Below, piece by piece: positions 1-32,658 of a DNA stretch of 64,000 nucleotides. The position numbers were made by a program, and so were the translations under genes. The stretch spans positions 34,935-98,934 of the forward strand of contig CAZRWW010000010.1 of NCBI GenBank assembly GCA_964603725.1. The letters are read 5' to 3'. The DNA comes from an uncultured bacterium (GTDB taxonomy: Bacteria; Eisenbacteria; RBG-16-71-46; CAIMUX01; WJJG01). Positions within the stretch are counted from its first letter, which is position 1. Every line of letters begins with the position of its first letter. The notes under the pieces were generated by a model. It was not told the DNA's origin and searched no databases. It saw nothing but the letters and a program-made list of their open reading frames with translations.

Positions 1-1041
1 CAGGAAGCGGGCGCCTTCCGGGTCGGCTTGCGCCATGGCCAGACCGCGCTCCGCCGCTTCCTCCGCCTCGGAGAGATTCACGTCTTGTCTCAGGCACCAG
101 TCGGCGAAGGACAGCATCTCCAGGTAGTTCTCGCGCCAGTTGTCGCTCAAGGTCGCCCGCCGGCAGGCGAGGGCCTGCTCGCGGTCCTTGAGCACGTATA
201 GCGCGTAGTCGACCAGCAGGCCCTGGCGGCCCCAGCTCGCGCAGGCCTCTTCGTCCTGCGCGGTCGCGATGATGACGGCATCGATGTACGACGCCGCCAG
301 GGTCGTGTCGCTGACCGGCGGATAGACGAGCGCCGCCATCGAGCGTCCCAGCTCGATCAGATTGGCGGAGGAGCGGCGCGGGGAAGCGATGACCGCGTCG
401 GCGGCCGCTGCCAGATCCGCCCGCGTGAAGGCCGAGTCGGCGCCGGGACTGAAGACGGCGCCCAGCAGGGTCTCGAAGATGTCCATCAGGTAGTCACGGC
501 CTGCGTCGGTGTTGAGCCGCTGGGCTTCTCGGTAGTACCGCACCGCTTCTGCATACGCGGATCGCGCGACATGATAGCGGGCGAGCCTCACGGCCAGATC
601 GGTGGTCGGCTGGGCCGCGAAGCGGGCGGTCTTGTCCTCGATGGTGGTGGGATCAGCCAGGGCCTCGGCCAGCGATCCGAGGAACCCGGCCTTCTCGTAC
701 CCCACCCAGCTTTCGATCGGGGCGCCTTCGGGAGTGAGCAGGGCAAAGGTCGGATAGGCCCGCACCCGGTGCTCCTGGCTCAGCAGCTTGCCTTCCTCCT
801 GCGCCAGGTCGGCGGTGAACAGGACGACCGCCGCCAACGCCCTGCGCACCTCGGAGTCCGACTTCGCCTCACGGACGAAGACGTCGCAGGCGTGTCACCC
901 GCGGGAGTAGAAGTCGATCAGCAGCGGCCGCCGCAGACTCTGAGCCCGCGCCCGCGCCTCCGCGAGCGTGGTCGGGGCCACGTCACGGGAACAGGACGAC
1001 GTTGTCGCGATGAAAAGCACGAGTGCCAATGGAGCGATCAT
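1..1041 (-). CDS. Thioredoxin-fold protein with signal peptide; 3' end is off-window. In-frame TGA at 895..897 falls at the first Cys of the redox motif (U-H-A-C), so this is a candidate selenoprotein.
   Basis: My own minus-strand translation gives MIAPLALVLFIATTSSCS..LLIDFYSRG[TGA]HACDVFVRE..RVRAYPTFALLTPEGAPIESWVGY, followed by an alpha-helical/TPR-like region that stays open to position 1. The DFYS..xxC..AYPTF pattern is typical of thioredoxin-fold/TlpA-like proteins. TGA is an ordinary stop elsewhere in the window (8112, 8804). Confidence 0.5.
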
Positions 1042-1067: not shown

Positions 1068-2300
1068 CTACAGCCGCTCGAGCGGCCGAAACAGCCAGGC
1101 CCACCGGCCGGGCACCAGATCGATCGCTTGCACGGGACAGAACTCGTGGCAGCAGTAGCAGCGTATGCACGTCGCGTCGTCGACGCCACCGCCTTCTTTG
1201 CGCCGAGGATCGACGACCGCAGGGCTGGCGGCAGAGGGATCGACGACCACGGGGTCGTCGGCTGCGGGACCGACTGCGGCAGGATCGATCGCGGCGGGAT
1301 CGACCGGGCACCCCTGCGCGCAGGCGTAACAGCGGATGCAGGCCTCGGCGCGGATTCGCGGGCGGGGTTGCCACTGGCGGCGAATCCATTGCTGGGCGCG
1401 TTCGGGCAGCGGGAGGATGTTCAACAGACTGGTGATCTCGCTCACGCGCTCGAAGTCGTCCAGCCGCAAGGCGGCGAGGTCCGCCCCGCGCACCTCGATC
1501 TCCTCCAGCCGGGTGGTCCCGAAGCCGACCTCGGCCGCGGCGGTCAGGGTGGGGACATTGCGCGCATCGATGCCCACCAGGTGGCAGGCGACAACATCCA
1601 CCGCGGAAAGGTCGGCTCCCGCGATCAGCGCGCCCACTTCCCGCGGGCGGCCGCCGCTCGGCCCCGGCCCCTCCATGCCGACGATGCCGTCCATCACCGC
1701 CAGCACGGGCTGCACGATGCGGTTGATGTCCACGATCAGTCGCGCCAGCCAGATGCGAGTTTGCAGCCGGTAGTGGTAGCGGGCCTTGCGCGTGCCGGGC
1801 ACGAGACCGAACTGGTTCTTGACGGCGCCCGTGAAGGTGAGCTGGCCGTGCGTCTTCAGCTTGGGCAACGTGATCACGGCGTCGACCCCCGCGAGAGCAC
1901 TGGGCAGCTCGATGCGGCGCGCGACGCGATTCTCCGGGGCCTCGAAGACGCGAGTCTGCGTGAGGTCAACCCACTCGGCGCCGCCGTCCGCGATCGCGGC
2001 GAGCAGCCCCGCCTTGCGCGCCAACGCCAGCGGGTCGCCGACGCCCGGGTTGTCGCCCACCCATACGCGCGCGCCGGCCTCGCGGCACAGCTCGATCATG
2101 GCGCGCACGACCGCCGGGTGCGTGGTGATCGCCTTCTCGGGCGCGGCGCCCTGCAACAGGTTCGGCTTGAGCAGGACGGTCTGCCCGGCCCGCACGAAGG
2201 CGCCGATCCCGCCCAGCGGCTCCAGGCAGGCCCGCACCGCGGCGGTCACGCGTCCGCGGTCGTACGTGCGGATCTCGTGAAGCGCGACGACGGCAGCCAT
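1068..2300 (-). CDS. DUF362-domain protein with two C-terminal 4Fe-4S ferredoxin-type cluster motifs
   Basis: Complete 410-aa ORF. C-terminus carries CIRCYACAQGCP and CIRCYCCHEFCP (CxxCxxCxxxCP twice). N-terminal two-thirds matches the DUF362 family commonly fused to ferredoxin domains. Confidence 0.8.
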   Translation of the reverse strand: MAAVVALHEIRTYDRGRVTAAVRACLEPLGGIGAFVRAGQTVLLKPNLLQGAAPEKAITTHPAVVRAMIELCREAGARVWVGDNPGVGDPLALARKAGLLAAIADGGAEWVDLTQTRVFEAPENRVARRIELPSALAGVDAVITLPKLKTHGQLTFTGAVKNQFGLVPGTRKARYHYRLQTRIWLARLIVDINRIVQPVLAVMDGIVGMEGPGPSGGRPREVGALIAGADLSAVDVVACHLVGIDARNVPTLTAAAEVGFGTTRLEEIEVRGADLAALRLDDFERVSEITSLLNILPLPERAQQWIRRQWQPRPRIRAEACIRCYACAQGCPVDPAAIDPAAVGPAADDPVVVDPSAASPAVVDPRRKEGGGVDDATCIRCYCCHEFCPVQAIDLVPGRWAWLFRPLERL

Positions 2301-2320: not shown

Positions 2321-3442
2321 TCACCGGGTGATCAGCAGCCGCTGCGTCTGCTGCTCGGTGCCGGTCTCCAGGCGGCAGAAGTAGACACCGGACGGGACGT
2401 CTGTACCCGTGTCGGTCCGGCCGGTCCAGGTCACGGCATGGCGGCCCGGAGCGCGGCGGCCCTCCAGCAGCGTGGCGATCCGACGGCCGGCCGAATCGTA
2501 GACCTCCAGACACACGTCGCAGCTCGCGCGCAGCTCGAAGGCGATCTCGGTCTCCGGGCGACCGGGGCTGGGCTGCGCCGGATAAAGGACCGGCGCCAGG
2601 TCGGACGCAACGCGGCTGCCCGGCTGTTCCTGAACGGCGGCCATGTTCATGAGCTCGGGAATCGAGACCTTGGCGCCTTGCCAGATCTCCAACGTGTTGT
2701 CGGCCTGGAAGACGGTGTCCTGGAAGAAGCAGATGACCTCGCACTCTCCCTCGACCCACGTGCCTTGGAGCTGGAAGGGCAGCGTGACGGAAGCGTACCC
2801 GTTTGCGGCGAGCGACACCGGCGTGCCGGTCTCCGTGGGAACCATGTCGCGCATGACGTGGTGGTGCCAATCGAGCTGATTGGGAGCCACATAGTACAGC
2901 TCCGACTCGGTGAGCACGCAATGCAGCTTGCCCGAGAGGCTGCTCGTGCCGGCGTTGTGGAGCATCACGGTCACGAAGCCCGTGCGCGTGCCCGCGTCAT
3001 AGTCGCCGCTCAGATCGAGGGTCACGTTGGACTGAACGGGCAGCCTGTTCAGCAGGTGGTTCTCCCAGCCCGAGTAGATGTATCCAGGGGTCGGGCAGCC
3101 GTCCAGCCACAACCACGGCCAGGCATAGTAGTAGCTGCCCCCGTAGTAGTAGGGCGGCGGATAGGTGTGCCAGCGGCTGTAGCCCTCGGTGGTGTAGTAG
3201 GGAGCGGCGGTGTTGGTGTAGTAGGCGATCGCCGCCACGCGCGTGTTGTACACGTCGGCCAGTCTGTCCAGCTCACGGCTGGCTTGCAGGCAGGACCCTC
3301 AGGTGGTGCTGGTGAAGTATTCCAGGACCGCCATGCGCTCGACGGCGCCGGCCGCGCCCGACCCGATCGCGATGATCAGGGCGGGGACCAGCGTCAGCCC
3401 GAACGCCATCCGCGTCAGGACCCGGCTCCGAGAATCGTGCAT
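2321..3442 (-). CDS. Secreted thioredoxin-like protein (WCGYC-type family) with a C-terminal FlgD-Ig/T9SS-like sorting domain. In-frame TGA at 3299..3301 replaces the first Cys of CxxC (T-U-G-S-C), so this is a candidate selenoprotein.
   Basis: The track ORF 2321..3253 continues upstream in frame through one TGA. The translation is MHDSRSRVLTRMAFGLTLVPALIIAIGSGAAGAVERMAVLEYFTSTT[TGA]GSCLQASRELDRLADVYNTRVAAIAYY.., a signal peptide followed by an EEFTATWCGYCP-like motif. The C-terminus VYDSAGRRIATLLEG..GVYFCRLETGTEQQTQRLLITR matches the FlgD-Ig-like sorting tail also seen at 23350..23607 and 25450..25693. The start could instead be the ATG at 3409. Confidence 0.55.
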
Positions 3443-3445
3443 GAC

Positions 3446-5413
3446 CTACCTCCATGGTTGTGGATGCCCAGGAATTGTACCATGTCGCGGTTGCGCCCGC
3501 GTATAGACGGCCCACCCGCCGCCCTCGAAGGCCGCGCTGAAGCCGCCCGCCGCCAAAACCTCCCCGAGGCGCCGCGCCAGGAGCTCGTCCGGAACGGGCG
3601 CGGGGCAGTAGGGATCCCACACGATCGCCTCGAAGCGCTCGAGCGGACGCCGAGGGGGCCAGCCACGCCAGTCCCGCTCGAAATCGACCGGCCGCAGCAG
3701 GGGGAACGGCTCGAAGCGCGCGTAGAGCGTGCGCCGCGGATCAAGGGCAGCGAGCGCGGCGCGGAGCCGGGGATCCGGCGGATCGGGGCGCGCGCTCTGC
3801 TGGAAGGCGGCCGCGAGCTCGGAGGCGTCCGCCCGGCCGCCCGCCACGGCGTCCGCCGAACCGGGCGGGCGCCAGTCGCGTCGGGCCAGCACGATCAAGG
3901 CCTCGGGCGATGCGCTGACCCGCGCATTGACGTCCGGAAAGCGGGGCGGCGTGTAGCTGGCCGCGAGGATCTCATCGCGCGTGTGCAAGCGCAGGAAGTA
4001 GGCCAGCTCCCAGTCCGAGATCACCTCGCGATGACCCTGCGCCAGCAGCTCGCGGGCCAACAGCGGGCGCAGCGAGGCCTGCGGCAGAACCCAGGCGGCC
4101 GTGGCGGAAAGAGCGGTGATCGCGCCCAGGATCGCCAGGCACACCGCGATCGGCGCGACGTGGCGCGCGGGCCAGACGCCCAGGCCGCGCGCCGCGGACA
4201 GCACGAGGAACGGGGTCAGGGGCAGCGTGTAGCGGAACCACTGGGGGTCGTTCCGGAACTCGGGCGTCACGAGCAGAACGGCCAGGCCCCCCGCGCCCAG
4301 GTACGCCGCCAGCGCCAGCCCGGGGTCGACCGCGCCGAGCCACGCCCGCCGCCGGCGCGCGGCGCGGATCCAGTCGATGACGCCCAGGGCCGAGACGACG
4401 AGATACACGAGCGTGAACAGAGCGAGCGCCACCGCGGCTTCGTTGCTCGACCACGTGCCGGTGGTGAGCGCGGCGGGGAAGGCGCGGGCGAGATCGGCCA
4501 GGAGCGCGGGGCGCAGGATCGACGCAAGCTCCGGCGCCCAGCCGGTGCCCTCCGTGCCGGGAGGACCGAGCGCCGCCGGAACCAGGCGCGGCAACCAGAG
4601 CGGAAGATAGCCGGCGAGGAAGCCCAGCGCGGCGACGCCCAGCGACAGAACGCCCGCCGGCCGCGGCCTCCAGCGCGCCGCAACCTGTCCCACGAGCAGC
4701 GCCAGGGCCGCGGGCACGAACAGCAGCGCCTGATCGTGGGTCCAGACTGCCAGCCCGAGCAGGACTCCGCCCAGGAGCGAGTCGCGGAGGCAACGCGATC
4801 CGGACTCGCGCCTCGCCGGCCAGAGCAGGAGCGTGCCCAGCAGCCCGAGCACGAGCGACTCGAGATACCCGCCGCGCGCCTTGACGCCGGCCAGGAAGAG
4901 GACCGCGGGCGGAAGCAGCCAGACCAATGCCAACCGGAGCGCAGGGCGGCGCGACGCGTCTTCCGTTGCCCGCCTCTGCCAGGCGCGCAGAACCCAGAGA
5001 CCGAGCGGCACCCAGAGCAGCGGCGACAGCCGCACGGCCGTGGCCGAGGGTCCGAACAGAGCCACCCAAGGCGCGGCGATGAGACTCTGCAGCGCACCCA
5101 TGTAACTCTGCCCGGGGAGGAAGAGCGAGAAGCGACCCGCGAGGATCTCACGGGCGTGCAGGCCTACCAGAGCCTCATCGGCGTCGAAGTTGGCGGGCCA
5201 CTGCGCGAGAAACCCGATTCGCGTGGCCACGGCCAGCAGCAGCAGCGCGGGCCAGGCGAGTCGGATCGCGAGGCGCCGCGCGCGCGAACGGCGCGGGACT
5301 TGTCCGGCCTCCTCCGGGTGCAGGCTCATGCGGGCGAGCATACCCCAGCCGGCCGGAGGCTGATAGCCCGTCCGGCGGGACCCGGCCCAGTGGCCGGGGT
5401 ATTCCCGGCGCAC
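3446..5413 (-). CDS. GT-C fold membrane glycosyltransferase (ArnT/PMT, GT39/GT83-like) with a C-terminal soluble domain
   Basis: About 12 predicted TM helices. A FDADE motif sits in the first extracytoplasmic loop, as in ArnT/PMT. The GTG start abuts the radical-SAM stop; alternative ATG starts are at 5341 and 5329. Confidence 0.6.
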   Translation of the reverse strand: MRREYPGHWAGSRRTGYQPPAGWGMLARMSLHPEEAGQVPRRSRARRLAIRLAWPALLLLAVATRIGFLAQWPANFDADEALVGLHAREILAGRFSLFLPGQSYMGALQSLIAAPWVALFGPSATAVRLSPLLWVPLGLWVLRAWQRRATEDASRRPALRLALVWLLPPAVLFLAGVKARGGYLESLVLGLLGTLLLWPARRESGSRCLRDSLLGGVLLGLAVWTHDQALLFVPAALALLVGQVAARWRPRPAGVLSLGVAALGFLAGYLPLWLPRLVPAALGPPGTEGTGWAPELASILRPALLADLARAFPAALTTGTWSSNEAAVALALFTLVYLVVSALGVIDWIRAARRRRAWLGAVDPGLALAAYLGAGGLAVLLVTPEFRNDPQWFRYTLPLTPFLVLSAARGLGVWPARHVAPIAVCLAILGAITALSATAAWVLPQASLRPLLARELLAQGHREVISDWELAYFLRLHTRDEILAASYTPPRFPDVNARVSASPEALIVLARRDWRPPGSADAVAGGRADASELAAAFQQSARPDPPDPRLRAALAALDPRRTLYARFEPFPLLRPVDFERDWRGWPPRRPLERFEAIVWDPYCPAPVPDELLARRLGEVLAAGGFSAAFEGGGWAVYTRAQPRHGTIPGHPQPWR

Positions 5414-6580
5414 TCAGACGGTGACTTCCTCGGTGTGCTCCGGCTCCAGTCGCGGCGCGCGACGACCCGGGCGGGTGCGCCTGTAGATCCGCAGATTCTG
5501 GGCGGCCTTGTTGCAGGTCGTGAAGCACTCCTTGCAGATGGGCCGGCCCGTGCGAGGCATGGCGAGCGAGTTCCGGCGGTACTGGCGGTAGCGCGACCCG
5601 TACCAGATCTCCGCGAAGCTCTGCTCGTGGATATTGCCCAGCACCTCCTCCTCGCAGTAGCAGCACGGGACCACCACGCCGTCGGGTCCGATGACGCAGA
5701 AGACCCATCCTTCGTAGCAGGGGATCTTGCGCTGCAGGGGATTGCTCTGGACTCTGCCCTGTCCGGACCGGAGAGGCAGATGCGTCGTGAACTCGGCGAA
5801 GTTGTGGATGATGCCCGCCCGATCGAGACGGCTTTGCCACTGCGGCACGCCGGCGAGCAGGCGGGCCATGTCCTCGGGCGTCAGGCGCAGATGGGCCGTC
5901 TCGGGCAGCTCGCCCATGACGTTCCAGACGATCTCGTCGACGCCGAGGTCCAGGCAGGTCTGGGCCATGCCGTCGAAGTCGTCCAGATTGTCGCGGCAGA
6001 CGACGTGACTCGCGCGCACCCATGGACGCTGCTGGCCCGCGGCGCGCCGCCGCTCGAGGACATCCTTGAGAAACGCGATGGCCTTGTCCCACAGATCGGA
6101 GCCGTTGATGAGCCGGTAGGTCTCGCGCGTGCCCGCATTGAGCGAGACCGTCAGTCGGTCCAGCTTCGTTTCCACCAGGGTGGGCGCGAAATCGGACCCG
6201 GCCAGAGTGGCATTGGTGACCATGGCGCACGCCATCCCCGTCCCCTTGATCGCCCTCACGATCTCGCTCGGATTGGGGTGCGCGATCGGGTCCCCCTTGC
6301 CGGACAGCTCGACCAGATCGACCCCGGCCTGGGCGAGCTCGCGCGCCAGCCGGCGGATCGTGGGCAGATCCATGGTCTTGCGGCCGCCGGCGTAGGTGCG
6401 CCACGCGGTGACCGGGGCGGGTTGGAGCCTGCCGTGCGATTCGCAGAAGACGCAGCGGAGGTTGCAGTGGTGCGTGACCTCCAGGCTGACCACCTGCGGT
6501 CCGACCAGGGGACGGCCCAGGGCGGCGCCGAGCATCCGTCGCGCCTGGCGAGAGCGGGATGTGAACTTGAACCGATCCAT
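5414..6580 (-). CDS. Radical SAM enzyme with a C-terminal SPASM domain (peptide/protein-modifying maturase family)
   Basis: CNLRCVFC is the CxxxCxxC radical-SAM cluster motif. The C-terminal Cys-rich SPASM region reads CYEGWVFCVIGPDGVVVPCCYCEE...ICKECFTTC. Confidence 0.85.
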   Translation of the reverse strand: MDRFKFTSRSRQARRMLGAALGRPLVGPQVVSLEVTHHCNLRCVFCESHGRLQPAPVTAWRTYAGGRKTMDLPTIRRLARELAQAGVDLVELSGKGDPIAHPNPSEIVRAIKGTGMACAMVTNATLAGSDFAPTLVETKLDRLTVSLNAGTRETYRLINGSDLWDKAIAFLKDVLERRRAAGQQRPWVRASHVVCRDNLDDFDGMAQTCLDLGVDEIVWNVMGELPETAHLRLTPEDMARLLAGVPQWQSRLDRAGIIHNFAEFTTHLPLRSGQGRVQSNPLQRKIPCYEGWVFCVIGPDGVVVPCCYCEEEVLGNIHEQSFAEIWYGSRYRQYRRNSLAMPRTGRPICKECFTTCNKAAQNLRIYRRTRPGRRAPRLEPEHTEEVTV

Positions 6581-14271: not shown

Positions 14272-17200
14272 TTGGCGCATCCCCCTCTGGACGGGATGCG
14301 GACGGACCGATTTGTGCGCCGTTGCACCCAGGGGCACAGCACCGTGGCCAGGACACCTGTGGCAACAGCGCGTGGGCGCGCGGGCGCGTGGGTCGGCCTC
14401 TGCCTGGCGAGCGGGCTGCTGTCCCCGGGCCAGATCCGGGCCGCGGCGATCGCGCTCCTCCTGCTGGCTGTCCTCGGCCACCCGGCGCTGGCCGTCGACC
14501 GGGTCTGGGACGGCGAGGGGCTGACCACCGCCTGGTCTAACAACCTCAACTGGTCGGGCGACACCGTGCCGGGCGCGGCCGACGTCGCCATCTTCGACGC
14601 GACGAGCTCCAAGGACGCGGTCATCACCGCCAACATCAACGTGGCCGGCGTCTCCATCCGCGCCGGCTACGGCGGCACGATCACGCAGAACGCGGGCCGG
14701 TCCATCACGGTCGGAGCAGCAGGTTTCGATCAGGCCGCCGGGACCTTCGCCGGCGGCACGAGCACGATCGACATCAACGGGCCGTGGACGCTCTCGGGCG
14801 GCAGCTTCACCGCGACCAGCGGCACGCTGGCGGTCAGCGGCAACCTCACCGTGAGCGGCGGGAGCTTCTCGCCCGGCGCCGGCACCGCGCAGTTCGACGG
14901 CACCCAGACGATCGCTGCCGACGGCGTGGTCTTCAACAAGGTCACCATCACCTCGGCCAGCACCCACACGATCACCCCGGGCACCACGATCACGGCCGCG
15001 GGCACGCTCACGCTGAGCAACGGCTACATCTCCGGCGGAACCCTGGCGGCGCAGGCGGCGATTTCCCAGGTTTCAGGCTTTGACGGCGGGACCGGCACCC
15101 TGCTCATCAACGGCGCCGGGGACCAGACCTTCACGGGCGCCAGCACCACCACGACCGGAACCCTGCCCGACGTCGTGATCGACAAGCCCGGGGGCGTCCT
15201 CACCCTGGCGGGGACAATCCGCACGACCAACGACTGGACCTACGTCGGGGGCGCACTGGATCCCGGCACCAGCCTGCTCGTCTTCGGCGGCACGCTGGCC
15301 GTCAGCGGCTCGCACACGCTCAAGCTGGTCCAGATCCGCGGCGCCACCACCGTGGCCGCGGGCACGACGCTCACGGTCGACAGCACGCTGACCATGCCCT
15401 CGGCGGTCGCCTTTGCCGTGAACGGCGGCGTCATCGTCAACCGCACCCTCACCCTGACGGACGGCTCGATCGCCGGCAGCGGCGCCGTGGAGGCGCGGGC
15501 CGATATCGCCCACGCCGCCACCTTTGACGGGGGCCTGGGGACCCTGCTCATCAACGGCCCGGGCGACCAGCTCTTCACGAGCGCGAGCACGACGACGACC
15601 GGCGACTTGCCGCATATCCGGATCGACAAACCGGGCGGCACGCTCAGCCTGGCGGGAACGCTGCGCCTCGTGACCGCCGACTGGACCTATATGGCCGGCA
15701 ACCTGGCGACGGCCGGCAGCGCCCTCGTCTTCGAGGGAACGGTGAACATCAGCGGCTCGCATGCTCTGGATCTGGTGACATTCCGGGGAACGGGGGCGAA
15801 GACCCTGGCGGCCGGCACGAACCTCACCGTGACCGGGGACCTGACCTTGACGGACGGCTCGATCGCCGGGGAGGGTGAAGTGGCGGCGCAGGCGAACATC
15901 GCCCAGGCCGCCGCCTTCGATGGCGGCGACGGGACGCTGCGTATCTGTGGCGCCGGTGATCAAACGCTCACCGGGGCGTGCACGGCCACGACGGGCGCCC
16001 TGCCCGATGTCGTGATCGACAAGCCCGGGGGCACCCTCACCCTGGCGGGGACGATCCGCACCATCAACGACTGGAGCTATCTCGCGGGGACGCTGGATGC
16101 CGGCGCCAGCACGATAGTCTTCGGCGGCACGCTGGCGGTGACCGGCTCGCACGAGCTGACCCTGGTCGAGATCCGGGGCGCCGCCACGGTGGCCGCGGGC
16201 ACAACGCTGACCGTCAAGAACACGCTCACCATGCCCTCCGCGGTGGCCTTCACCGTGGACGGCAGCGTCATCGCCACCAGCACGCTCATCCTGACCGACG
16301 GTTCGATCGCCGGCGTCGGCGCCGTGGAGGCGCGGGCCGACATCACCCACGCCGCCACCTTCGACGGCGGCCTGGGGACGCTGCTCATCAACGGCACGGG
16401 CGACCAGACCTTCACGAGCGCGAGCACCACCACAACCGGCGACTTGCCGCACATCCGGATCGACAAGCCGGCGGGCACGCTCAGCTTGGTGGGGACGCTG
16501 CGCATCGTTGCCGCCGACTGGACCTACGTGGCCGGAGGTCTGGCGCCGGGCGCCAGCCGCGTCATCTTCGACGGCACGGTCAACATCAGCGGATCGCAGA
16601 CCTTGAACCTGGTGACGTTACAGGGGATCGGCGCGAAGACCCTGGGCCCGGGAACGATCCTCACCGTGCCGAACACGCTGACCCTGACCGGTGGCTCGAT
16701 TGACGGAGAGGGCGAAGTCCGCGCCCAGGCGGGCATCACCCAGGCCGCCGCCTTCGACGGGGGCGCCGGCACGTTGCGCATCTGCGGCGCCGGCGACCAA
16801 ACCCTCACGGGCGCCAGCACGAGCACGACCGGATCGCTCTGCGACCTGGTGATCGAGAAGCCATCCGGCACGCTCACCCTGGCGGGGACGATCCGCACGA
16901 CCAACGACTGGACCTACAGCGCCGGCGCGGTGGCCTTGGGGACGTCGGCGGTGATCTTCGCCGGGAACGCGGTCGTCACCGGAACGCAGACGCTGCGGGC
17001 GGTGCAGGTCCGCGGCGATGTGACCGTCCCGGCGGGCACGACGCTCACGGTGAACAACGGCCTGACGGTGAACACGGCCGGCGCGTTGACGGTCGATGGG
17101 GTGGCGATCTCGACCAGCACCCTCACCCTGACGAACGGCGCGATCAACGGCCCCGGCCGGGTCGAGGCCCGCGCCAACATCACCCAGTCCGCCGATTTCG

Positions 17201-20200
17201 ACGGTGGCGCGGGGACCCTGCGAATCAACGGCACCGGCGATCAAACCTTCACCGGCAGCGCCACCCTCACTGAGGGGAGCCTGCCGGTTGTCGAAATCGC
17301 CAAGCCATCCAACACCCTCACACTGGCAGGCACGATTCGCGTGCAGGGATCCGCCTGGCGGCGCCTGTCGGGGACCGTCGCGTCCGGAACAAGCAGGCTT
17401 GTGCTGTCAAGCGGCGCGACAGTATCCGGATCCCATCAGCTGTACAACCTCGACCTCGAGGGCGACGGGGTCAAGACCGTCGAGGCGGGGACGACGCTGA
17501 CCGCGACGCGAACCCTGACCCTCGGCGGCGGAACCATCGATGGCGGCGCGCTGGTGGCCACCGGCGACGTGGTCCAGCTCCCGGCCTTTCTCGGGGGCAC
17601 GACCCTCCTCACCATCTCAGGCGCCGCGGCGCAGACCTTGACCGGGGGCGGCAGTCTGACCGAGGGCTCGTTGCCGTCCCTCACGATTCTCAAGACCGGC
17701 GGCGCACTGACCCTGAGCGGGATCATCCGCACCGAGCGCGACTGGACCTATGGCTCGGGCGCGGTGAACGCCGACACCAGCCTGGTCGTTCTGGGAGGGA
17801 CCGTCAATCTCGCAGCCGCCGGCATGGCCTTCAACGACCTGCGCCTGGATGCAACGGCGGTGACGCTCGCCACGGCGCTCGACGTCGACGACGACTTCGC
17901 CCTGTGCGACGGGGTGTTGGTCACGGCCGGGAATGCCGTGATGATCGGCGGGGACTGGTCCCAGACGGGCGGCACGCTCGTCCCGGGCGCCGCGGCCGTC
18001 ACCTTCAACGGCGGTCTCGATGCCGAGATCGCCTCGGCCGGTCTCGGGGCGGGGGCTCGATTCTCCGATCTGATCATCCAGAAGTCGGGTGGGGCCGCCG
18101 TCAGAGCGCTCGACGACCTCTGCGTGGGCGGGGACCTGCGCCTGACGACCGGGCGGCTCGACGGGGCGGACCGCAGGATCGTCCTGGCGGGAGACTGGCT
18201 CAACGATGCCGGGCCGAGCGCGTTCGCGGCCGGGACGGGCGCGGTCGAGCTGAACGGCGGGGGCCAGCTGATTGGCGGCGCGCACCCGACGACGTTTCAC
18301 GCCCTCGCGCTCGGCGGCAGCGGCGCCAAGAGCGCCGCGCGGGATCTTGCCGTCGTCGATCTGACCCTGGACCAGGACTTGCTCATTGCGCCCCACCTGC
18401 TGCGCATTTCCGGCGAGACGGCCGGCTCCGCCGACGTGGTCGGCACGGTCCGCCGGACCGTCAGCGGCGACGGCCCGTTCAGCCTCGGCAGTGCCCACAC
18501 GACGATCACGTTTGACGGTGTGGGGACGAACCCCGACTCGCTCGATGTGACCTTGACGCGCGGTGTCCCCCCGGTCGGTCTGCCCGATGCGGTCCGGCGC
18601 TACTACGATATCGCCGCTGCCGGCGGCGAGGGCTGGACGGCGACGCTGCGGCTGCATTACCGTCCCGACGAGCTGAACGGCAATGCCGAGGACGGCCTGG
18701 CGGTCTGGAGGCTGGCCGGAGTCTGGGAGCGCCTCGGCCGATCGGGACACCACTACGACCAGAACTGGATCGAGCGCTCGGGCGTCGCCCAATTCTCACG
18801 CTGGGCGCTGGCCTGCGGCTATCCGGATCACTTCGAGATCGATCCCATTCCCAGCCCGCAGACGGCCGGCGTGCCCTTCCCGCTCACCGTGACGGCCGTC
18901 GACTCATCCGGCGTCCGGCTGGCGGAGTACACGGGCGACCTGTCCCTCGCCACGACGGCCGGCAGCATCACTCCGGCGATGATCACGATGACCGCCGCGG
19001 ACAGCGGGCGCATCTCGCACTCGGTGCGGGTCACCGAGGCGGGCGCCGACCAGATCATCCGCGCCGACGACGGCGAGGGGCACCTGGGGCAGAGCAATCC
19101 CTTCACGGTCGCGCCGAGTCCGCTCAGACACTTCTCGATCCGCCCCATCGCCAGCCCACAGACCGCCGGCGTCCCGTTCGGGGTCACGATCGCGGCCCTG
19201 GACTCCTTCGCGAACCGGATCACCACATTCGTGGGTACCCTGACCTTGACGGCATCGGCCGGCGGCGTCAGCGGCGGGCGCATCGACATGACAGCGGCCG
19301 ACAGCGGGCTCGTCACCCGGCAGATCATGGTGGGGCGAGCCGAGCACGACCTCGTGCTGACCGCCAGCGACGGCCACGGTCACGCCGGCGTCACCAATGC
19401 CTTCACGGTTCTGCCGGCGATCACCAGGCGCTTCGCGATCAGATCAATCCCCAGCCCGCAGACGGCTGGCGAGTTCTTCGATCTGGAGATCACAGCGGAG
19501 GATGCTTACGGCAACGTCACGCCCGACTTCACCGGCGGCGTGGATCTCGCCACGAGCGCGGGATCGATCACGCCCAGGCGGGTGATCTTCAGCGTCACCG
19601 ACTGGGGCCGACACATCGAACCCGCCTGCGTGACCCTGGCCGGGCTCGGTCACACGGTCAGCGCCTCCGACACGAGCGGCCATCGCGGCACAAGCCGGCC
19701 GTTCGATGTCGCCGGCGCCCCACTTCATCACTATGACCTGGCCCCGATCGACAGCCCACAGACGGCCGGCGTCCCGTTCGAGATCGCCATCCGGGCGCTC
19801 GACCGCTTCGGGAACCTCTCGCCGGAAATCCCGGGGACGCTCGCCCTGGCCACCACGGCCGGGACGATCATCCCCGCGACCGCGAGGTTCAGCGCAGCCG
19901 ACAGCGGCCGGCATCGCGAAGGCGTCACGGTCACGGCGGCCGGCACCGGGCGCACGATCGAGCTCGTCGACAGCCTCGGGCGGGCGGCGACGAGCAACGC
20001 CTTCGACGTCCAGGCTGGCGGCGTGACACGGTTCGCCGTGAGGGCGATCCCGAGTCCGCAGACGGCGGGCGTGGCCTTCGACATCGCCCTGGAGGCGCTC
20101 GACGCCCAGGGCAATCTCGCCGTCGGCTTCGCCGGCGAGGTCGCGCTGGCGACCACGGCGGGGACGATCACGCCCGCCGCGGTAGTCTTCGCCCCGTCCG

Positions 20201-23200
20201 ATCGCGGCACGCGCGCGCTGTCCGTTCAGGTCACCCAGGCCGGAATGGGGCACGTCATCGCGGCGACGGACGCTGCTGGTCACAGCGGAGTGAGTGGACC
20301 CTTCAGCGTCACGCCCGGCGTTCTGGCGCGCTTCGCGCTCGCCGATGTGGCTAGCCCGCAGGTCGCCGGCGCGGCCTTCGATCTCGTGCTCACGGCCGAG
20401 GATTCCTGGGGCAACCGCGTGACGTCGTTTGCGGGCGATGTGGCCCTGGTCACCACCGCCGGGACCATCACCCCGGCGCTCGCTACCTTCGCCGGCGCCG
20501 ACAGCGGGCGGCACAGCGCGGCGGTCTGGGTGACCCTGGCGGCCGATGGGCGGACGATCACCGCCAGCGACGGCGCCGGGCACTCGGGCGCGAGCGCGCC
20601 CTTCACGGTGACGGCCGGTCCGCCCGCTCGTCTCGCCTTCGTCCAACAGCCGGGGAACGGCCGCAGCGGCGCGCCGCTGAGCCCACAGCCGGTGGTCGCG
20701 CTCGAGGATCTCTTCGGCAACCGCACCAGCCAGGTGGTCGCTATCGTGACGATGGCCCTGGCCGGCGGGGCCGCGGGTCTGCCCGGCGGCACGGCCACCG
20801 TGGTCACCGAAGACGGTGTGGCCGCCTTCCGTGACTTGCAGATCGATCGCGCGGGCGCGGGGCAGAGGTTGATCGCCAGCTCGCCCGACCTCGCGCCGGT
20901 TCTGAGCGCCGAGTTCGACGTCGAACCGGGTCCGGCCGCCAGGCTCATCTTCCTTGTACAACCCGGCGCCGGTGAGGGCGGCAGCGCGCTCGATCCCCAG
21001 CCTGTCCTCGCCGTGCACGATGCGGCGGGCAACCTGGCGGCCACCAGCACGGCCGTGATCCGTCTGGCCCTGGCGGACCCGCCGGTGCCGGCCGTCCTGT
21101 CGGGCTCGAGCAGCCGCGCCGCGAACGCCGGGGTGGCCGCCTTCGAGGACCTGAGCATCGACAGGTCCGCTTCCGGATACCGGCTCATGGCATCCTCCGA
21201 GGGACTCGTGGAGGCGGTGAGCGAGCCTTTCACGGTGCGCGTGGGGCCGGAAGTTGCGCTGGTGTTCATCACCCAGCCGGGACCGGCGATCAGCGAACAG
21301 CCCCTCGCGCCGCAGCCCGTGGTCGAGATCCGCGACGCGGGAGGCAACCGCGCCACCGTCACGGTCGCCGTGACGGTGTCACTGGGTGACCATCCCGCGG
21401 GCGCGACCCTGGAAGGATGCACGGTCGTGACCGCGACCGACGGGGTGGCGGCCTTCCCCGGCCTCATCATCGCGCGGGCCGCAGAAGGTTATACGCTGCG
21501 GGCGGCCTCGCCCGGGCTGATGCCGGCGCTCAGCGCGTCCTTCGGCGTCGCCGCCGGCCCACCGGTCGAGTTGGTCTACATTGAGCAGCCCAGTCATGGC
21601 TTCGGCGGTGAGCCGCTGGAGCGTCAACCCGCCATCGGCATCGCCGACGAAGCGGGCAACCCGACGGCCGCTGATGGCGTGGAGGTCAGGCTCGGCCTGG
21701 AGGGCGGCGACCGGGCTGGACGGCTGCTGGGCGCAAGCGCAGCGCGTTCGCGCGTGGGGCTGGTTCGCTTTCACGGCCTGCGCATCGACCGAAAGGGTCG
21801 CGGGTATGTGCTGGCGGCGCGATCGGACGGCCTGCGCGAGACCGCGAGTGCGCCGTTCGAGATCATCCCCGGGCGGCCAGCGGCGATCACGGCGTTCGGA
21901 GGCGAGGATCAGCGCGGGACAGCGGGGCTGCCGCTGGCCGAGCCCCTGCTCGCGCGCCTGGCCGATGCCGGCGACAATCCGCTGGCCGGCGTTCGGGTCA
22001 GGTTCGCGGTGACCTCATCCCCACGCTGGTCGAGCGGGCAGGGACTGAGCGACCCGCTCGTGGCCACCGACTCCGCCGGTGTGGCCGCGGTCCGGCTCAC
22101 GCTCGGGAGCCACGCCGGCGCCTATCAGGTGACGGCCACATCCCCCGACCTGCCCGGCCACGCGGTGGTCTTCTCGGCGAGCGCCCGTGAGCCGGACGGC
22201 ACCGGCGCGGTCACCATCGTGCCCATGGAGGTCTTCGCCGGCGCCGACGTGGACATCGCCTTCACGCTCCAGGCCGACGAGCGCGCCACCAACACGGAGG
22301 TGGCGATCGAATGGCCGATCGCATGGCGCTGGTCGGGTCGAGCCGCGGACCTCGAGCTGAGCGGCGACGGGTTCCTGGGCGCGCAGAGCTCCGTCTCCGG
22401 GAGCGGATCGGCGCACGATCCGTTCGTCCTGACCGTGACCCGCGCGCGCGTGGCGCCGCGGCGATTGGGGACTCTGACGGTGCGCGCCACGACGGCGCCC
22501 GAGGAGACCCGTGGCTTCGACTTCCGGGTCTCGACCGCCTCGCATTCGGGCTGTCTGACGCCGCTGGCGCACCAGCCCTCAGTCCAGGTGGGCCCACTCG
22601 TCGCGGGCGACGCCACCCTGGATGGGTTGGTGGACCTGCTCGATCTGCTGTCGCTGAGCGATTTCATCCAGGGACGGGGCGGCGACCTGGGCACGGCGCA
22701 GCGGCGCGCGGCGGACGTCTTCCCCGCGCATGCGGCCGCGCCGCGCGCGGGGCCGCCCGACGGGCGGCTGGAGCGCGCCGACATCGAGCTGCTCGAGCGC
22801 GCGATCCTGAACCAGGTCTGGGACGATGGGCTGGCGCTCGGCCGCGGCGGAGCACCGGCTCCGCCCGGCGTGAGCGGCGAAGCGATGCGAGCGGGCGGCG
22901 AAGCGATGCGAGCGGGCGGCGAAGCGATGCCAGCGGGCGGCGGCGACTTCTCGGCGGCCGGCGGGGATCTCACCCTGATCGCCGAGGCGGCCGCCGGCGG
23001 CGCGACCGCCCTGCGCATGACCAACGGGGTGCCCGTGCGCGGCATCCAGATCGATCTGCGGCCGCAAGCGGGTGGGCCGCTGGAGCTGCGCTGTCGCGGC
23101 TTCGATCGCGTCGACGGCTTCCGCCTGGTGTCCGCGATCGCTCATGGAGAGCATCGCATCCTGCTGTGGAGCCCCGGTGACGCCCTGATCGCGTCCGGGG

Positions 23201-31900: not shown

Positions 31901-32658
31901 AGGGGTTGAAGCTGCATCTCGTCGAGCGTGTTCAACAGAGGCGCCAGAGTGGGCTTCTCGCCGGCACCGAGGCGCTCGCGGATGAAGTCCTCGACGAAGA
32001 CTTGTGCCGGCGACAGCCACAGCTCGGGGACGCGCGCCAGGACGGTGCCGACGACCTGGTCGCCAGCGGCGGTGTGCCGCGCGATCGCCCGCAGGGCGAA
32101 GTAGGCGATCCAACTGCTGTGGCGATCGAGAGCGCTGAGCAGCGAACGGGTGGGGACCGATCCCGGGTCCCGGCGCGACAACGCTTCCAGCGCCACGAGG
32201 ATCGCCAGGGGGTTGTCGGAGATGAGGAAGCTCAGCAACCCCTCGGTAGTGTCATGCTCGGCCGTCATGCGGGCGACCGCGCGCTCGAAGAGGGCATTCG
32301 TCAGTAGATCGCTCGGACGCAGCGAGACGTTCCAGAGGGGAATGAGCTCCGCCAGGAGCGCGTCGAGGGGCTGCTCGGCTTCGCCGGGCGGGCCGGGCGT
32401 GACGTCGCCGGGCGGGCCGGGCGTGACGTCGCCGGTGCCGGGGGCGGGCGGCGCGGCTCCGGTGGCCGCGCCGGAGGTGGGCGGCGAGCCCGGGGGGCCG
32501 GCGGCAGAGGGCCGGTCATCGGCGAGACGGGTATAGGGCGATAGCGCGCGGCGCGGACGCGCCGTCAGTCGCACGACGACCCCCGCGATGAGCCCGGCAG
32601 CGACCAACAGAAGTAGAGCCGCACCTATGCTGTCCACACCCCCTCCGGGCGACAACAC
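28987..32658 (-). CDS. Membrane-anchored ClpA/ClpB-family double-AAA+ ATPase fused to a C-terminal class-I peptide-chain-release-factor-like module with GGQ altered to GGK
   Basis: N-terminal TM helix, then a Pro/Gly-rich linker with the repeat GDVTPGPP x2. D1 Walker A VLVGEAGTGKTT. D2 is ClpB-D2-like with FLFAGPTGTGKTE, VVLLDEFEKA and a sensor region. The last ~350 aa align to RF1/RF2 domain 1 (ERDFWTS versus DPDFWND), the PCRF domain, a GGQ-region equivalent RGGGKGTDRERAHVTVVP (versus [21 protein letters not shown]), and domain 4 RIVRSYRLGAAPIVRDSARGWRTGRLDHVLAGNFD (versus [33 protein letters not shown]). Confidence 0.75.
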   Translation of the reverse strand: MLSPGGGVDSIGAALLLLVAAGLIAGVVVRLTARPRRALSPYTRLADDRPSAAGPPGSPPTSGAATGAAPPAPGTGDVTPGPPGDVTPGPPGEAEQPLDALLAELIPLWNVSLRPSDLLTNALFERAVARMTAEHDTTEGLLSFLISDNPLAILVALEALSRRDPGSVPTRSLLSALDRHSSWIAYFALRAIARHTAAGDQVVGTVLARVPELWLSPAQVFVEDFIRERLGAGEKPTLAPLLNTLDEMQLQPLRRLLFQLDDQLIGALREEVLTHIERLRRESELAVPERPPDQPASGGVGQPWRAEVDPRIDAIVEHPALMETVDRIEAALERDAPPSFVLVGEAGTGKTTVMRLLSRRLLPKGWTIIEAQHMDLIAGQKYIGQFEERFEGLLKRLAAKPRQLWYAPNIHELVWTGQHDKSDTGALDLLLPHLEARQVVVIGETDPEGYERILRARPRYRGALQAERLAPPDPATTLDLACRWAQAAGTNAGAAPVSPDTVCEAVHLAEQFLADRAAPGHVLDLLKTTCARLASETGREGRTGPGREVPAIGPRREVPAIGRDDLMTTVSQLTGLPAVVLDDRQQLDLARLRSHFESRVMGQPEAIDCLVDRVAMIKAGLTDPTRPLGVFLFAGPTGTGKTEIAKVLTEFLFSRPERMIRIDMSELQTSGSLTRLFGGRAAGEAKGSLVERIREQPFAVVLLDEFEKANEQVWHMFLQVFDDGRLTDDRGLTVNLRHAIIIMTANIGAAMSGAARLGFTREDEQFRPEAIERAIGETFRREFLNRIDQVIIFRPLSRETMRAILRKELRAISRLRGLRWRDWAIEWDDDAIEFLLEKGFTPDLGARPLRRAIERHLLAPLATVIAKCQAPAGDQFLFVRAAGGGLQVEFVDPDAPEHAPAAAGGRHAGGAVERPPLGAIVLDPRGTATEAEALQLHHDRLRALVEAESWRAAKQAALARTAERDFWTSLDRFEILGSAEYQDRIERVLESAGSLLTRLVSSAAGQREHLPRKLIGDIAQKLYLIDAACADVHAGRPREAFLSLECVACAARDTGGDQRPSWGQTLGMMYQAWAQKRGMNCTVLDESEDPRAGDYRLLLAVAGLGAYGLLAGETGLHVAEYPRGGGKGTDRERAHVTVVPQPIEPPAGNTRAARLRALRGQARAALAALGPSDLRIVRSYRLGAAPIVRDSARGWRTGRLDHVLAGNFDLMASVGEAVDRQGA

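What the first reader, a model, noticed from the sequence alone, without database searches (positions are those of the whole stretch)
3290..3445. Second in-frame UGA at a CxxC position (T-U-G-S-C) in a T9SS-tail thioredoxin-like protein: candidate selenoprotein 2
Seen in sequence: MAVLEYFTSTT-[TGA]-GSCLQASRELDRLADV.. continues in frame into the 310-aa ORF. The motif corresponds to the EEFTATWCGYCP family with Sec at the first Cys. Both UGAs in this operon are followed exactly 8 codons later by CGU-GAG (R-E) inside a small hairpin loop (CCAGC-CGUGA-GCUGG here). That shared spacing is either a conserved protein feature or part of a SECIS. Two independent TGAs, each at the catalytic Cys of a paralogous domain, are hard to explain as pseudogenes.
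Basis: partly seen in the sequence, partly recalled or inferred. Interest (0 to 1): 0.7.

Follow-up and report, generated by a model that had tools for sequence, protein, structure and literature searches.

The report
Unannotated selenocysteine gene, HBP35/Omp28-like thioredoxin
The in-frame TGA is very probably a real selenocysteine codon in a secreted thioredoxin-like protein that public annotations cut in two, but it belongs to a selenoprotein family first predicted in 2008, so it is a sound and fairly ordinary addition.

Summary
On the minus strand an ORF with a Shine-Dalgarno site and a signal peptide (ATG 3442) reaches TGA 3301..3299 inside ..EYFTSTT-U-GSC.. and continues in frame to the gene's own TGA stop at 2323..2321.

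Reasons to read the TGA as selenocysteine:
- All 12 distinct orthologs (46-80% identity; several from Candidatus Eisenbacteria MAGs) keep the TGA. The protein upstream of it is under purifying selection.
- The wider family has 37 TGA members, never TAA or TAG, and 9 Cys members at that column.
- P. gingivalis HBP35 Cys48, shown to be needed for its thioredoxin activity, aligns there.
- TGA is also the commonest ordinary stop in the window.
- A hairpin 21 nt after the UGA (CCAGC-CGUGA-GCUGG) is nucleotide-invariant across orthologs and fits the bacterial SECIS model. Comparable hairpins follow every Sec member but not the Cys members.

The family is already known as "hypothetical protein GOS_C" (2008), now NCBIfam NF045500 "Omp28-related selenoprotein". 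This gene is a divergent member below that model's cut-off (22 vs 200 bits), which probably explains why public records truncate it.

Not shown: Sec machinery in this genome, and selenium in the protein. The claim that the two UGAs share a SECIS is only weakly supported.

The parts
2321..3442 (-). Full read-through coding sequence: 373 codons including Sec48, plus the TGA stop at 2323..2321
   Evidence: Translation; the same architecture is conserved in orthologs.
3449..3453 (-). Shine-Dalgarno GGAGG, 6 nt before the ATG
   Evidence: Sequence. Orthologs have GGAGG, AGGAG or GAAGGAG before their upstream ATG.
3344..3442 (-). Predicted Sec-pathway signal peptide (residues 1-33, ..AAGA|VERM)
   Evidence: Read from the sequence. 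An AxA-type site precedes (A/V)(E/Q)RM in all orthologs. This is inferred; no signal-peptide predictor was run.
3299..3301 (-). In-frame TGA, proposed selenocysteine codon (U48)
   Evidence: Conserved as TGA in 12 distinct orthologs and 37 family members in all; Cys in 9 others.
3290..3301 (-). U-G-S-C redox motif (U48, C51)
   Evidence: Aligns with C48-G-Y-C51 of HBP35 and with U-P-Y-C of GOS_C. HBP35 C48/C51 are essential for its activity (PMC2907840).
3268..3282 (-). Core SECIS-like hairpin CCAGC-CGUGA-GCUGG (5 bp, 5-nt loop, loop starts 21 nt after the UGA)
   Evidence: Invariant at the nucleotide level in 12 orthologs: pS 0.09 here against about 0.55 elsewhere, and the run of 4 invariant codons has permutation p = 0.002. 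The 5 core pairs are 100% paired in 18 sequences, with compensatory changes.
3257..3297 (-). Extended stem-loop around the core hairpin in the MFE fold (-11.9 kcal/mol)
   Evidence: The lower stem is not shown to be conserved.
3083..3343 (-). Thioredoxin-like N-terminal domain (about residues 34-120)
   Evidence: Profile matches to 2axo, HBP35 and thioredoxins. The AF2 model of Cys homolog P0018 has beta1-CxxC-alpha1 with pLDDT 80-96, and its best fold match is 5y1a.
2714..3076 (-). Omp28-like beta-sandwich domain (residues 123-243)
   Evidence: PF11551, 39 bits against a cut-off of 34.9. The P0018 model matches 2r2c with TM 0.70.
2324..2551 (-). C-terminal FlgD-Ig-like domain, a probable T9SS-type sorting domain
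   Evidence: PF13860, 34.1 vs 27 bits. TIGR04183, 21.1 vs 23 bits, just below cut-off. PDB profile matches to FlgD and to the PorU and PG93 C-termini.
862..897 (-). Companion site from finding 1: TGA 897..895 in a Thioredoxin_7-type protein (..DFYSRG-U-HAC..) and hairpin CUUCGUC-CGUGA-GGCGAAG (880..862)
   Evidence: A homolog with Cys at the first CxxC position (HCMQC) is in L003.

Best explanation
The region encodes one 373-residue exported selenoprotein, not a 47-codon ORF plus a 310-residue gene. Proposed mechanism (all steps below are inferred): the mRNA hairpin 16-30 nt downstream of UGA 3301..3299 acts as a bacterial SECIS. SelB carrying Sec-tRNA(Sec) binds it and decodes the UGA as selenocysteine. 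The product has a cleavable signal peptide, a thioredoxin-fold domain whose active site is U48-G-S-C51, an Omp28-like beta-sandwich, and a FlgD-Ig/T9SS-type C-terminal domain. It is a homolog of the Porphyromonas gingivalis surface protein HBP35 (which carries Cys at this position), whose equivalent C48/C51 pair carries disulfide-reductase activity. It most likely works as a periplasmic or cell-surface thiol/selenol-disulfide oxidoreductase, cycling through a selenenylsulfide between U48 and C51. Shown here: the UGA and its flanking coding sequence are conserved; Sec and Cys alternate at the same column; the hairpin is conserved beyond coding constraint and covaries; the fold resembles HBP35. 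Inferred only: SelB/SECIS decoding, export route, surface location, substrate.
For: (1) Orthologs. Four genome loci at 50-68% identity and seven more metagenome or assembly loci all keep TGA at the same codon, within ERM(A/V)xLEYFTSTT-U-xxC, each with an upstream SD, ATG and signal peptide. (2) Selection. The 14 codons upstream of the TGA have pS 0.53 and pN 0.09. The 15 codons between the TGA and the annotated GTG start are also conserved as protein. (3) Census. 37 distinct family members have TGA, none TAA or TAG, and 9 have TGT or TGC. This includes tandem Cys paralogs in L009 that are 54-57% identical to tandem Sec paralogs in L011. (4) Genetic code. TGA ends 12 of 26 high-GC3 ORFs in the window, including this gene. 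(5) Hairpin conservation. Of 76 amino-acid-invariant degenerate codon columns, only 8 are codon-invariant. These are the TGA itself, the consecutive AGC-CGT-GAG-CTG of the hairpin, and three scattered others. pS is 0.09 in the hairpin against 0.55-0.57 elsewhere. (6) Base pairing. The 5 core pairs are 100% paired in 18 sequences, 3 pairs show changes on both sides, and the covariation score exceeds 500 of 500 shuffles. (7) Family-wide hairpins. Every Sec member has a hairpin with its loop 14-34 nt after the UGA (mean -8.3 kcal/mol; mean z -1.88 against synonymous recodings). Cys members do not (mean -2.6 kcal/mol; z +0.06). Mann-Whitney p = 6e-5. (8) bSECIS criteria as stated in PMC13188914: loop of 5 nt, stem of 5 bp, G at loop position 2 followed by U, spacing 21 nt, and -11.9 kcal/mol for the extended stem-loop. 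(9) Known relatives. The U aligns with the U of GOS_C (BLASTP E = 4e-4) and with C48 of HBP35, and HBP35 C48S/C51S loses insulin-reduction activity (PMC2907840). The AF2 model of Cys homolog P0018 matches HBP35 (5y1a) best, at E = 1.9e-12.
Against: No selA, selB, selD or tRNA-Sec was found in the 64-kb window or in the fetched loci, and the rest of the genome could not be searched. The window's own hairpin is short: the core is -6.2 kcal/mol, which is not unusual for 67% GC sequence (p = 0.13 against recodings; global MFE z-scores 0.67 and 1.31). The hairpin codons also encode conserved residues (S-R-E-L-D), so part of the nucleotide conservation is due to the protein. The pair and hairpin statistics use related sequences and a structure derived from them. 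There is no proteomic or labelling evidence. The structural evidence comes from a 31%-identical Cys homolog, because the tool would not accept the U-to-C window sequence.
Confidence: 0.85

Rival explanations
1. The UGA is read through, but not as selenocysteine. A near-cognate tRNA inserts Trp, Cys or Arg, and the conserved hairpin acts as a read-through stimulator rather than a SelB-binding SECIS.
For: Sec machinery was not found in the sequence available. The hairpin is small, and its energy is not exceptional in this gene.
Against: The UGA sits exactly at the first Cys of a CxxC redox motif and alternates only with Cys across the family. It is always TGA in 37 members. The hairpin meets the bSECIS spacing and loop rules. 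A second conserved UGA at another CxxC lies in the same gene cluster. Relatives of this family were already classed as selenoproteins (PMC2398784).
Confidence: 0.06
2. The TGA is a true stop. A 47-codon upstream ORF and a separate 310-residue gene starting at GTG 3253 are expressed independently, as in the public annotations, or the gene is a pseudogene.
For: Gene callers split it this way in every public record: 15 close database homologs start after the TGA, and small 35-47-aa ORFs are called upstream. HBP35 itself is known to give N-terminally truncated forms (abstract of PMC2907840).
Against: The frame and protein sequence are conserved straight across the TGA in 12 orthologs. The called downstream start positions differ between orthologs. 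The 15 codons between the TGA and the GTG are conserved as protein. A protein starting at the GTG would lack a signal peptide and the beta1-CxxC-alpha1 part of its thioredoxin fold while keeping a secretion-type C-terminal domain. A pseudogene would not keep pN/pS of 0.17 upstream, nor the same TGA in sequences only 50% identical.
Confidence: 0.04
3. The organism uses a genetic code in which UGA is a sense codon (Trp or Gly).
For: None beyond the in-frame TGA itself.
Against: TGA terminates 12 of 26 confidently coding ORFs in the window, including this gene. A scan for in-frame TGAs with coding signal on both sides finds only this site and one adjacent-gene junction.
Confidence: 0.01

Closest known systems
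Hypothetical protein GOS_C, now NCBIfam NF045500 'Omp28-related selenoprotein' (Zhang & Gladyshev 2008, PMC2398784; Table 1 of PMC13188914)
   Same: It has a UxxC motif at the homologous position..RVVMVEDFTGLN-U-PYCPAAS.. against ..RMAVLEYFTSTT-U-GSCLQAS... It also has a thioredoxin-like N-terminal domain followed by an Omp28-like region, many Cys homologs, and a SECIS-like hairpin after the UGA.
   Different: Identity is only 22% (E = 4e-4). The window protein scores 22.4 bits against the model's 200-bit cut-off, and none of the ten other family members tested reaches it either (20-75 bits). This clade is high-GC, from Eisenbacteria-type MAGs and sediment or soil metagenomes rather than ocean surface reads. 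It carries a FlgD-Ig/T9SS-like C-terminal domain, which was not seen in the one GOS_C read compared (a 295-residue sequence).
Porphyromonas gingivalis HBP35 (PG0616/PGN0659; PDB 5Y1A)
   Same: The domain order is the same: signal peptide, thioredoxin-like domain with VLEVFTAEWCGYCPG, beta-sandwich, T9SS C-terminal domain. The profile matches along the whole chain (E = 1.5e-4). It is the best structural match of the family model (E = 1.9e-12). C48/C51 are needed for insulin-disulfide reduction, and the protein is secreted by the Por/T9SS system and anchored on the surface (PMC2907840, PMC3120885).
   Different: HBP35 has Cys, not Sec. It comes from Bacteroidota. Hemin binding and a role in heme use are shown for HBP35 and unknown here. 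Sequence identity is low, about 14% in the structural alignment of P0018.
P. gingivalis Omp28 (Pfam PF11551, NCBIfam NF033782, PDB 2R2C)
   Same: The central beta-sandwich passes the PF11551 threshold (39 vs 34.9 bits). The family model matches 2r2c with TM 0.70.
   Different: It is below the NF033782 cut-off (50 vs 150 bits). There is no lipoprotein Cys in the signal peptide. The solved Omp28 structure (2R2C) covers only the beta-sandwich domain.
Bacterial SECIS elements (E. coli fdhF type; bSECISearch consensus)
   Same: It is a stem-loop inside the coding region just after the UGA. The loop is 5 nt with G at position 2 followed by U, the stem is 5 bp, and the spacing is 21 nt (allowed range 16-37). 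Other members of the family carry a GGUCUU loop that resembles the fdhF GGUC loop (the fdhF loop sequence is from my own knowledge).
   Different: The core is very short, and no bulged U is evident. SelB binding is untested. The family uses at least four unrelated hairpin sequences at two spacings (about 21-24 nt and about 34 nt).
DUF1223 / Atu2684 (PDB 2AXO)
   Same: The N-terminal thioredoxin-like part with ..VVELFTSQGCASCPPAD.. aligns over residues 6-99 of the profile (E = 6e-5). Structural match TM 0.61.
   Different: It is a Cys protein with no T9SS tail and no known function.

Membership tests
Bacterial selenoprotein gene (UGA decoded as Sec through a SECIS) | In-frame UGA conserved in orthologs, with conserved coding sequence on both sides | tested here: met
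   12 distinct orthologs and 37 family members in all keep the TGA. pN/pS upstream is 0.17.
Bacterial selenoprotein gene (UGA decoded as Sec through a SECIS) | Homologs with Cys aligned to the UGA | tested here: met
   9 metagenomic members plus P0018, P0019 and HBP35 C48.
Bacterial selenoprotein gene (UGA decoded as Sec through a SECIS) | bSECIS consensus: 3-9 nt loop, 4-16 bp stem, G in the first two loop positions, 16-37 nt spacing, MFE <= -7.5 kcal/mol (PMC13188914) | tested here: met
   Loop CGUGA, 5 bp stem, 21 nt spacing. The core is -6.2 kcal/mol and the extended stem-loop is -11.9 kcal/mol, so the energy criterion is met only with the lower stem included.
Bacterial selenoprotein gene (UGA decoded as Sec through a SECIS) | selA, selB, selD and tRNA-Sec present in the same genome | not testable with these tools
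   None in the 64-kb window or the fetched loci.
Bacterial selenoprotein gene (UGA decoded as Sec through a SECIS) | Selenium demonstrated in the polypeptide | not testable with these tools
   Needs 75Se labelling or mass spectrometry.
NF045500 Omp28-related selenoprotein (GOS_C) | HMM score at or above the curated cut-off (200 bits) | tested here: not met
   22.4 bits, E = 6.7e-5. Ten other family members tested (nine Sec, one Cys) score 20-75 bits.
NF045500 Omp28-related selenoprotein (GOS_C) | UxxC at the homologous position of a thioredoxin-like N-terminal domain | tested here: met
   BLASTP against the GOS_C representative aligns U48 with its U (sequence from the PMC2398784 supplement).
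Omp28 family (PF11551 / NF033782) | Pfam gathering threshold | tested here: met
   39.0 bits against 34.9.
Omp28 family (PF11551 / NF033782) | NF033782 cut-off and a lipoprotein signal | tested here: not met
   50.3 bits against 150. There is no Cys in the signal peptide region.
HBP35-like T9SS cargo thioredoxin | N-terminal thioredoxin-fold domain with CxxC at the start of helix 1, followed by a beta-sandwich | tested here: met
   HBP35 matches the family profile in three stretches along the chain. The AF2 model of Cys homolog P0018 has beta(22-28)-C32xxC35-alpha(35-52), and its top PDB match is 5y1a. This used a homolog as proxy, not the window protein itself.
HBP35-like T9SS cargo thioredoxin | T9SS C-terminal sorting domain | tested here: inconclusive
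   TIGR04183 scores 21.1 bits against 23, and PF18962 scores 14.6 against 27. PF13860 FlgD_ig passes. Several paralogous family members pass TIGR04183 at 30-48 bits. No T9SS genes were looked for in the genome.
HBP35-like T9SS cargo thioredoxin | Disulfide-reductase activity and hemin binding | not testable with these tools
   Needs biochemical assays.

The most novel reading that the evidence does not exclude
The HBP35/Omp28-like family may be a large, mostly unannotated group of secreted and possibly T9SS-displayed cell-surface selenoproteins. It is spread across Eisenbacteria-type and other sediment lineages and often occurs as tandem arrays of 2-3 Sec genes. Its SECIS hairpins turn over quickly: at least four sequence types at two spacings, and a decaying relic in a recent Sec-to-Cys convert. 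The identical CGUGA loop at an identical 21-nt spacing in two unrelated genes of this genome could reflect a lineage-specific SelB recognition motif.
Probability: 0.3. Interest if true: 0.5.

Novelty: new member of a known kind. Interest (0 to 1): 0.3.

Why it matters
The public records for this gene and for at least 15 close homologs are truncated after the UGA. They lose the signal peptide and the catalytic motif, so the proteins are named "hypothetical" or "Omp28-related" with no redox site. Recognising the Sec codon restores a complete exported thioredoxin-fold enzyme. It also extends the GOS_C / NF045500 selenoprotein family to a divergent clade that the current NCBI model misses. It implies that these Eisenbacteria-type organisms decode selenocysteine. 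And it ties a so far uncharacterised predicted selenoprotein family to an experimentally studied relative, HBP35, which gives concrete assays for function. It does not change what is known about how Sec is encoded.

Tried and rejected
- Global MFE tests. Z-scores of the post-UGA regions were not significant (0.67 and 1.31 for this gene, about -0.7 for the other). Against synonymous recodings the family-wide signal was weak (Sec -0.91, Cys -0.17, p = 0.059). I replaced these with a position-restricted single-hairpin test. A first version of that script timed out.
- Covariance model R1, built from 17 Omp28-type sites and run on the window with filters off. It finds its own site at 63 bits, but the other UGA site only at 11.4 bits (E = 0.45, rank 7). 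This gives no significant independent support for a shared SECIS.
- Rfam at gathering thresholds on the whole window gave no hit. I do not know whether Rfam holds a model that would detect this kind of hairpin, so I treat this as uninformative.
- ARAGORN found no tRNA-Sec in the window or in 25 loci. Pfam scans of 25 window ORFs found no sel genes.
- Synteny. The DUF362, radical-SAM and glycosyltransferase-like neighbours are kept only in the closest relatives, about 80% identical. No conserved functional partner emerges.
- tblastn of the finding-1 protein against all loci found only one distant Cys homolog, in L003.
I used the Cys homolog P0018 instead.
- Literature. No paper holds both 'Omp28' and 'selenoprotein', or both 'Eisenbacteria' and 'selenocysteine'. 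The BSepDB supplements are not held.
- Rejected explanations: a UGA-sense genetic code, an assembly error, and a pseudogene. Reasons are given under the rival explanations.
Full report
**1. What is in the sequence**

The finding lies on the minus strand. ATG 3442 is preceded by GGAGG (3453..3449). It opens a reading frame with a basic, then hydrophobic, N-terminus that looks like a signal peptide (..AAGA|VERM). The frame reads MAVLEYFTSTT and then meets TGA at 3301..3299. It continues without interruption through GSCLQASRELDRLADV into the 310-residue ORF that gene callers start at GTG 3253, and it ends at TGA 2323..2321.

Read through, the product has 373 residues. It carries an Omp28 domain (PF11551, 39 bits against a cut-off of 34.9) and a C-terminal FlgD-Ig domain (PF13860, 34 against 27). 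The T9SS sorting-domain models fall just below threshold. The hairpin CCAGC-CGUGA-GCUGG is at 3282..3268.

The other UGA in the cluster (897..895) lies in a Thioredoxin_7 protein..DFYSRG-U-HAC... It also has CGU-GAG as codons 8-9 after it, in the loop of a 7-bp hairpin in exactly the same register.

**2. Is the TGA translated?**

A database search found 15 close homologs (44-100% identity). Every one begins after the TGA position, at varying start codons, which is what truncation by gene callers produces. Only two distant homologs cover the motif, and both have Cys opposite the TGA.

I then fetched DNA. Four genome loci at 50-68% identity, two of them titled Candidatus Eisenbacteria MAGs, keep TGA at the same codon. 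So do seven further metagenome or assembly loci. All have ERM(A/V)xLEYFTSTT-U-xxC and an upstream SD, ATG and signal peptide with an AxA-type cleavage site. Four independent assemblies of the identical sequence also carry the TGA.

In a codon alignment of the 12 distinct orthologs, the 14 codons upstream of the TGA have pS 0.53 and pN 0.09. That stretch is translated and under purifying selection.

TGA is also the commonest ordinary stop in the window: it ends 12 of 26 high-GC3 ORFs, including this gene. A UGA-sense code is therefore excluded.

**3. Sec/Cys alternation in the wider family**

A metagenome scan with a family alignment gave 33 more loci. Across all loci, the census found 37 distinct members with TGA at the first position of U-x-x-C. 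None had TAA or TAG. Nine members had TGT or TGC.

Sec members often sit in tandem arrays of two or three genes (L010, L011, L014, L032). L009 has the same tandem layout with Cys, and its copies are 54-57% identical to the Sec copies of L011. This is the standard comparative signature of a genuine selenoprotein family.

**4. The hairpin**

Taken alone, the window's hairpin is unremarkable. The core is -6.2 kcal/mol (p = 0.13 against synonymous recodings), and the global MFE z-scores are not significant. The evidence for function is comparative.

- *Synonymous conservation.* Of 76 codon columns whose amino acid is invariant and degenerate in the 12 orthologs, only 8 are codon-invariant. These are the TGA itself, the four consecutive codons AGC-CGT-GAG-CTG that form the hairpin, and three scattered others. 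The run of four has a permutation p of 0.002. pS is 0.09 in the hairpin codons against 0.55-0.57 elsewhere. CGT is used throughout, although other Arg columns vary freely among CGC, CGG and CGT.
- *Base pairing.* In 18 sequences sharing this register, the five core pairs are 100% paired. Three pairs show changes on both sides. One example is G-C to A-U in L033, L035 and L037, achieved partly through a synonymous CUG-to-UUG change. The covariation score exceeds all 500 shuffles. The caveat is that the structure was derived from these same related sequences.
- *Family-wide association.* Every one of the 37 Sec members has a single hairpin with its loop 14-34 nt after the UGA (mean -8.3 kcal/mol; mean z -1.88; all z below 0). 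The 9 Cys members do not (mean -2.6 kcal/mol; z +0.06). Mann-Whitney p = 6e-5. The hairpin sequences differ between subgroups: CCAGC-CGUGA-GCUGG, GCUGAUCU-GGUCUU-AGAUCAGC, CUCGACC-AGUU-GGUCGAG, CUCAGCC-GGUU-GGCUGAG. Within subgroups there are compensatory changes. The Cys paralog L009:1582 keeps a mismatched relic of the GGUC-type hairpin.
- *Fit to the published model.* The criteria as stated in PMC13188914 are a loop of 3-9 nt, a stem of 4-16 bp, a G in the first two loop positions, a spacing of 16-37 nt, and MFE no higher than -7.5 kcal/mol. All are met. The energy criterion is met only if the lower stem of the MFE fold is included (-11.9 kcal/mol).

**5. The 'shared SECIS' idea**

The two UGAs in the window share the loop CGUGA at the same 21-nt spacing. 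TGA-N21-CGTGAG occurs only at these two sites in the window, but the count itself is not significant: 0.66 expected, and 12 of 100 shuffles gave at least 2.

A covariance model built from the Omp28-type sites alone recovers the other site in full register, but only at 11.4 bits (E = 0.45, rank 7).

A homolog of the Thioredoxin_7 protein in L003, with Cys at the first CxxC position, also has CGT-GAG at +8/+9 but no stem. In that family R-E may simply be a protein feature. In the Omp28-type family, by contrast, R-E is not conserved outside one subgroup, while a hairpin always is.

The two thioredoxin-like domains are not detectably similar in sequence (E = 2.2). A common lineage-specific loop remains possible but is not shown.

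**6. What the protein is**

A profile of the family matches solved structures by sequence:
- P. gingivalis HBP35 (5y1a), in three stretches along its whole length, including VVLEVFTAEWCGYCPG opposite the U-x-x-C motif.
- Atu2684/DUF1223 (2axo), over the N-terminal domain.
- Omp28 (2r2c), over the middle domain.
- FlgD, and the C-termini of PorU and PG93, over the tail.

Residues 20-240 are confident (pLDDT 80-96). They form beta(22-28), then C32xxC35 at the start of helix 35-52, within a thioredoxin-like alpha/beta unit, followed by a beta-sandwich. The best PDB match is HBP35 (E = 1.9e-12), then 2axo; 2r2c matches with TM 0.70.

HBP35 is an exported protein that is secreted by the Por/T9SS system and anchored on the cell surface. 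Recombinant HBP35 reduces insulin disulfides, and the C48S/C51S mutant does not. It also binds hemin (PMC2907840; PMC3120885).

By homology, U48/C51 of the window protein is the redox centre. The likeliest function is a periplasmic or surface thiol/selenol-disulfide oxidoreductase. The export route, location and substrate are inferred.

The neighbouring genes (radical SAM/SPASM, a glycosyltransferase-like membrane protein, DUF362 Fe-S, Thioredoxin_7-TPR) are syntenic only in the closest relatives. They give no firm functional clue.

**7. Comparison with what is known**

NCBIfam holds NF045500, 'Omp28-related selenoprotein'. A 2026 review equates it with 'hypothetical protein GOS_C', a UxxC, thioredoxin-like-fold family predicted from the Global Ocean Sampling data in 2008 (74 Sec sequences, 312 Cys homologs). 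The GOS_C representative reads ..RVVMVEDFTGLN-U-PYCPAASFAIDSL.., and BLASTP aligns its U with U48 (22% identity, E = 4e-4). The kind of selenoprotein is therefore already known.

The window protein scores only 22 bits against the model's 200-bit cut-off. The other family members tested score 20-75 bits. That probably explains why public annotation truncates them and names two of them merely 'Omp28-related outer membrane protein'.

I found no paper that mentions Omp28 together with selenoproteins, or Eisenbacteria together with selenocysteine.

**8. What is not shown**

- No selA, selB, selD or tRNA-Sec lies in the window or the fetched loci, and the rest of the genome could not be searched.
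- No experimental evidence for selenium or for read-through exists here.
- Non-Sec read-through of the UGA cannot be formally excluded, although the CxxC position, the exclusive use of TGA and the SECIS-like hairpin argue against it.

**9. Verdict**

This is a real, conserved selenocysteine codon in a mis-annotated gene. It is a divergent new member of a known predicted selenoprotein family, with a useful link to the characterised Cys protein HBP35. It is solid but not surprising to a specialist.

Noticed in passing
window 1..1041 (-), TGA 897..895: This is the companion candidate (finding 1): a Thioredoxin_7 plus TPR-like protein with ..LLIDFYSRG-U-HAC.. and a 7-bp hairpin with loop CGUGA. 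A distant homolog next to the Omp28-like gene in L003 (about 4930-5890) has Cys at that position (..IDVYASHCMQC..).
   Followed up: partly
window 28987..32658 (-): A 1223-residue AAA_2/ClpB-D2/STAND-like protein has a PCRF (peptide chain release factor) domain match near its C-terminus (residues 1054-1117, E = 1e-8). This is an unusual combination.
   Followed up: no
window 45147..61201: A type VI secretion-like cluster: two PAAR proteins (45147-46229 and 50507-51634, both -), a ClpV-like ATPase (51750-54725), TssC (55256-56638) and VgrG (59207-61201).
   Followed up: no
window 45147..45149 (-): The TGA stop of the PAAR gene is followed in the same frame, four codons later, by the ATG of a 1338-residue ORF (41118-45134) with GC3 of 0.92. 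Apart from the finding itself, it is the only in-frame TGA with coding signal on both sides. It is probably just two adjacent genes.
   Followed up: partly
window 14272..23610 (+): A giant 3112-residue ORF, followed by an FG-GAP repeat protein (23648-25693). The giant ORF was not examined; the FG-GAP call comes from the Pfam scan.
   Followed up: no
L010, L011, L013, L014, L015, L032 (for example L011:523, 1621, 2858): Tandem arrays of two or three Sec-type HBP35/Omp28-like paralogs, each with its own UGA and hairpin.
   Followed up: partly
L009:1582 and L009:2785: Tandem Cys-type paralogs, 54-57% identical to the Sec-type copies in L011. The first keeps a mismatched relic of the GGUC-type hairpin (GCUAAUCUGGUUUUAGAUCAGC), which suggests a recent Sec-to-Cys conversion.
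   Followed up: partly
L013:419, L014:1546, L015:1636, L032:398: Some paralogs with the U-x-x-C motif appear frameshifted or end early (74-117 residues). They could be decaying copies or assembly errors.
   Followed up: no
window 3446..6580 (-) and 1068..2300 (-): The selenoprotein gene sits in a tight same-strand run: radical SAM/SPASM, then a PMT_2-like membrane protein, then this gene, then DUF362 with 4Fe-4S motifs, then the Thioredoxin_7 selenoprotein candidate. Only relatives about 80% identical share this order.
   Followed up: partly
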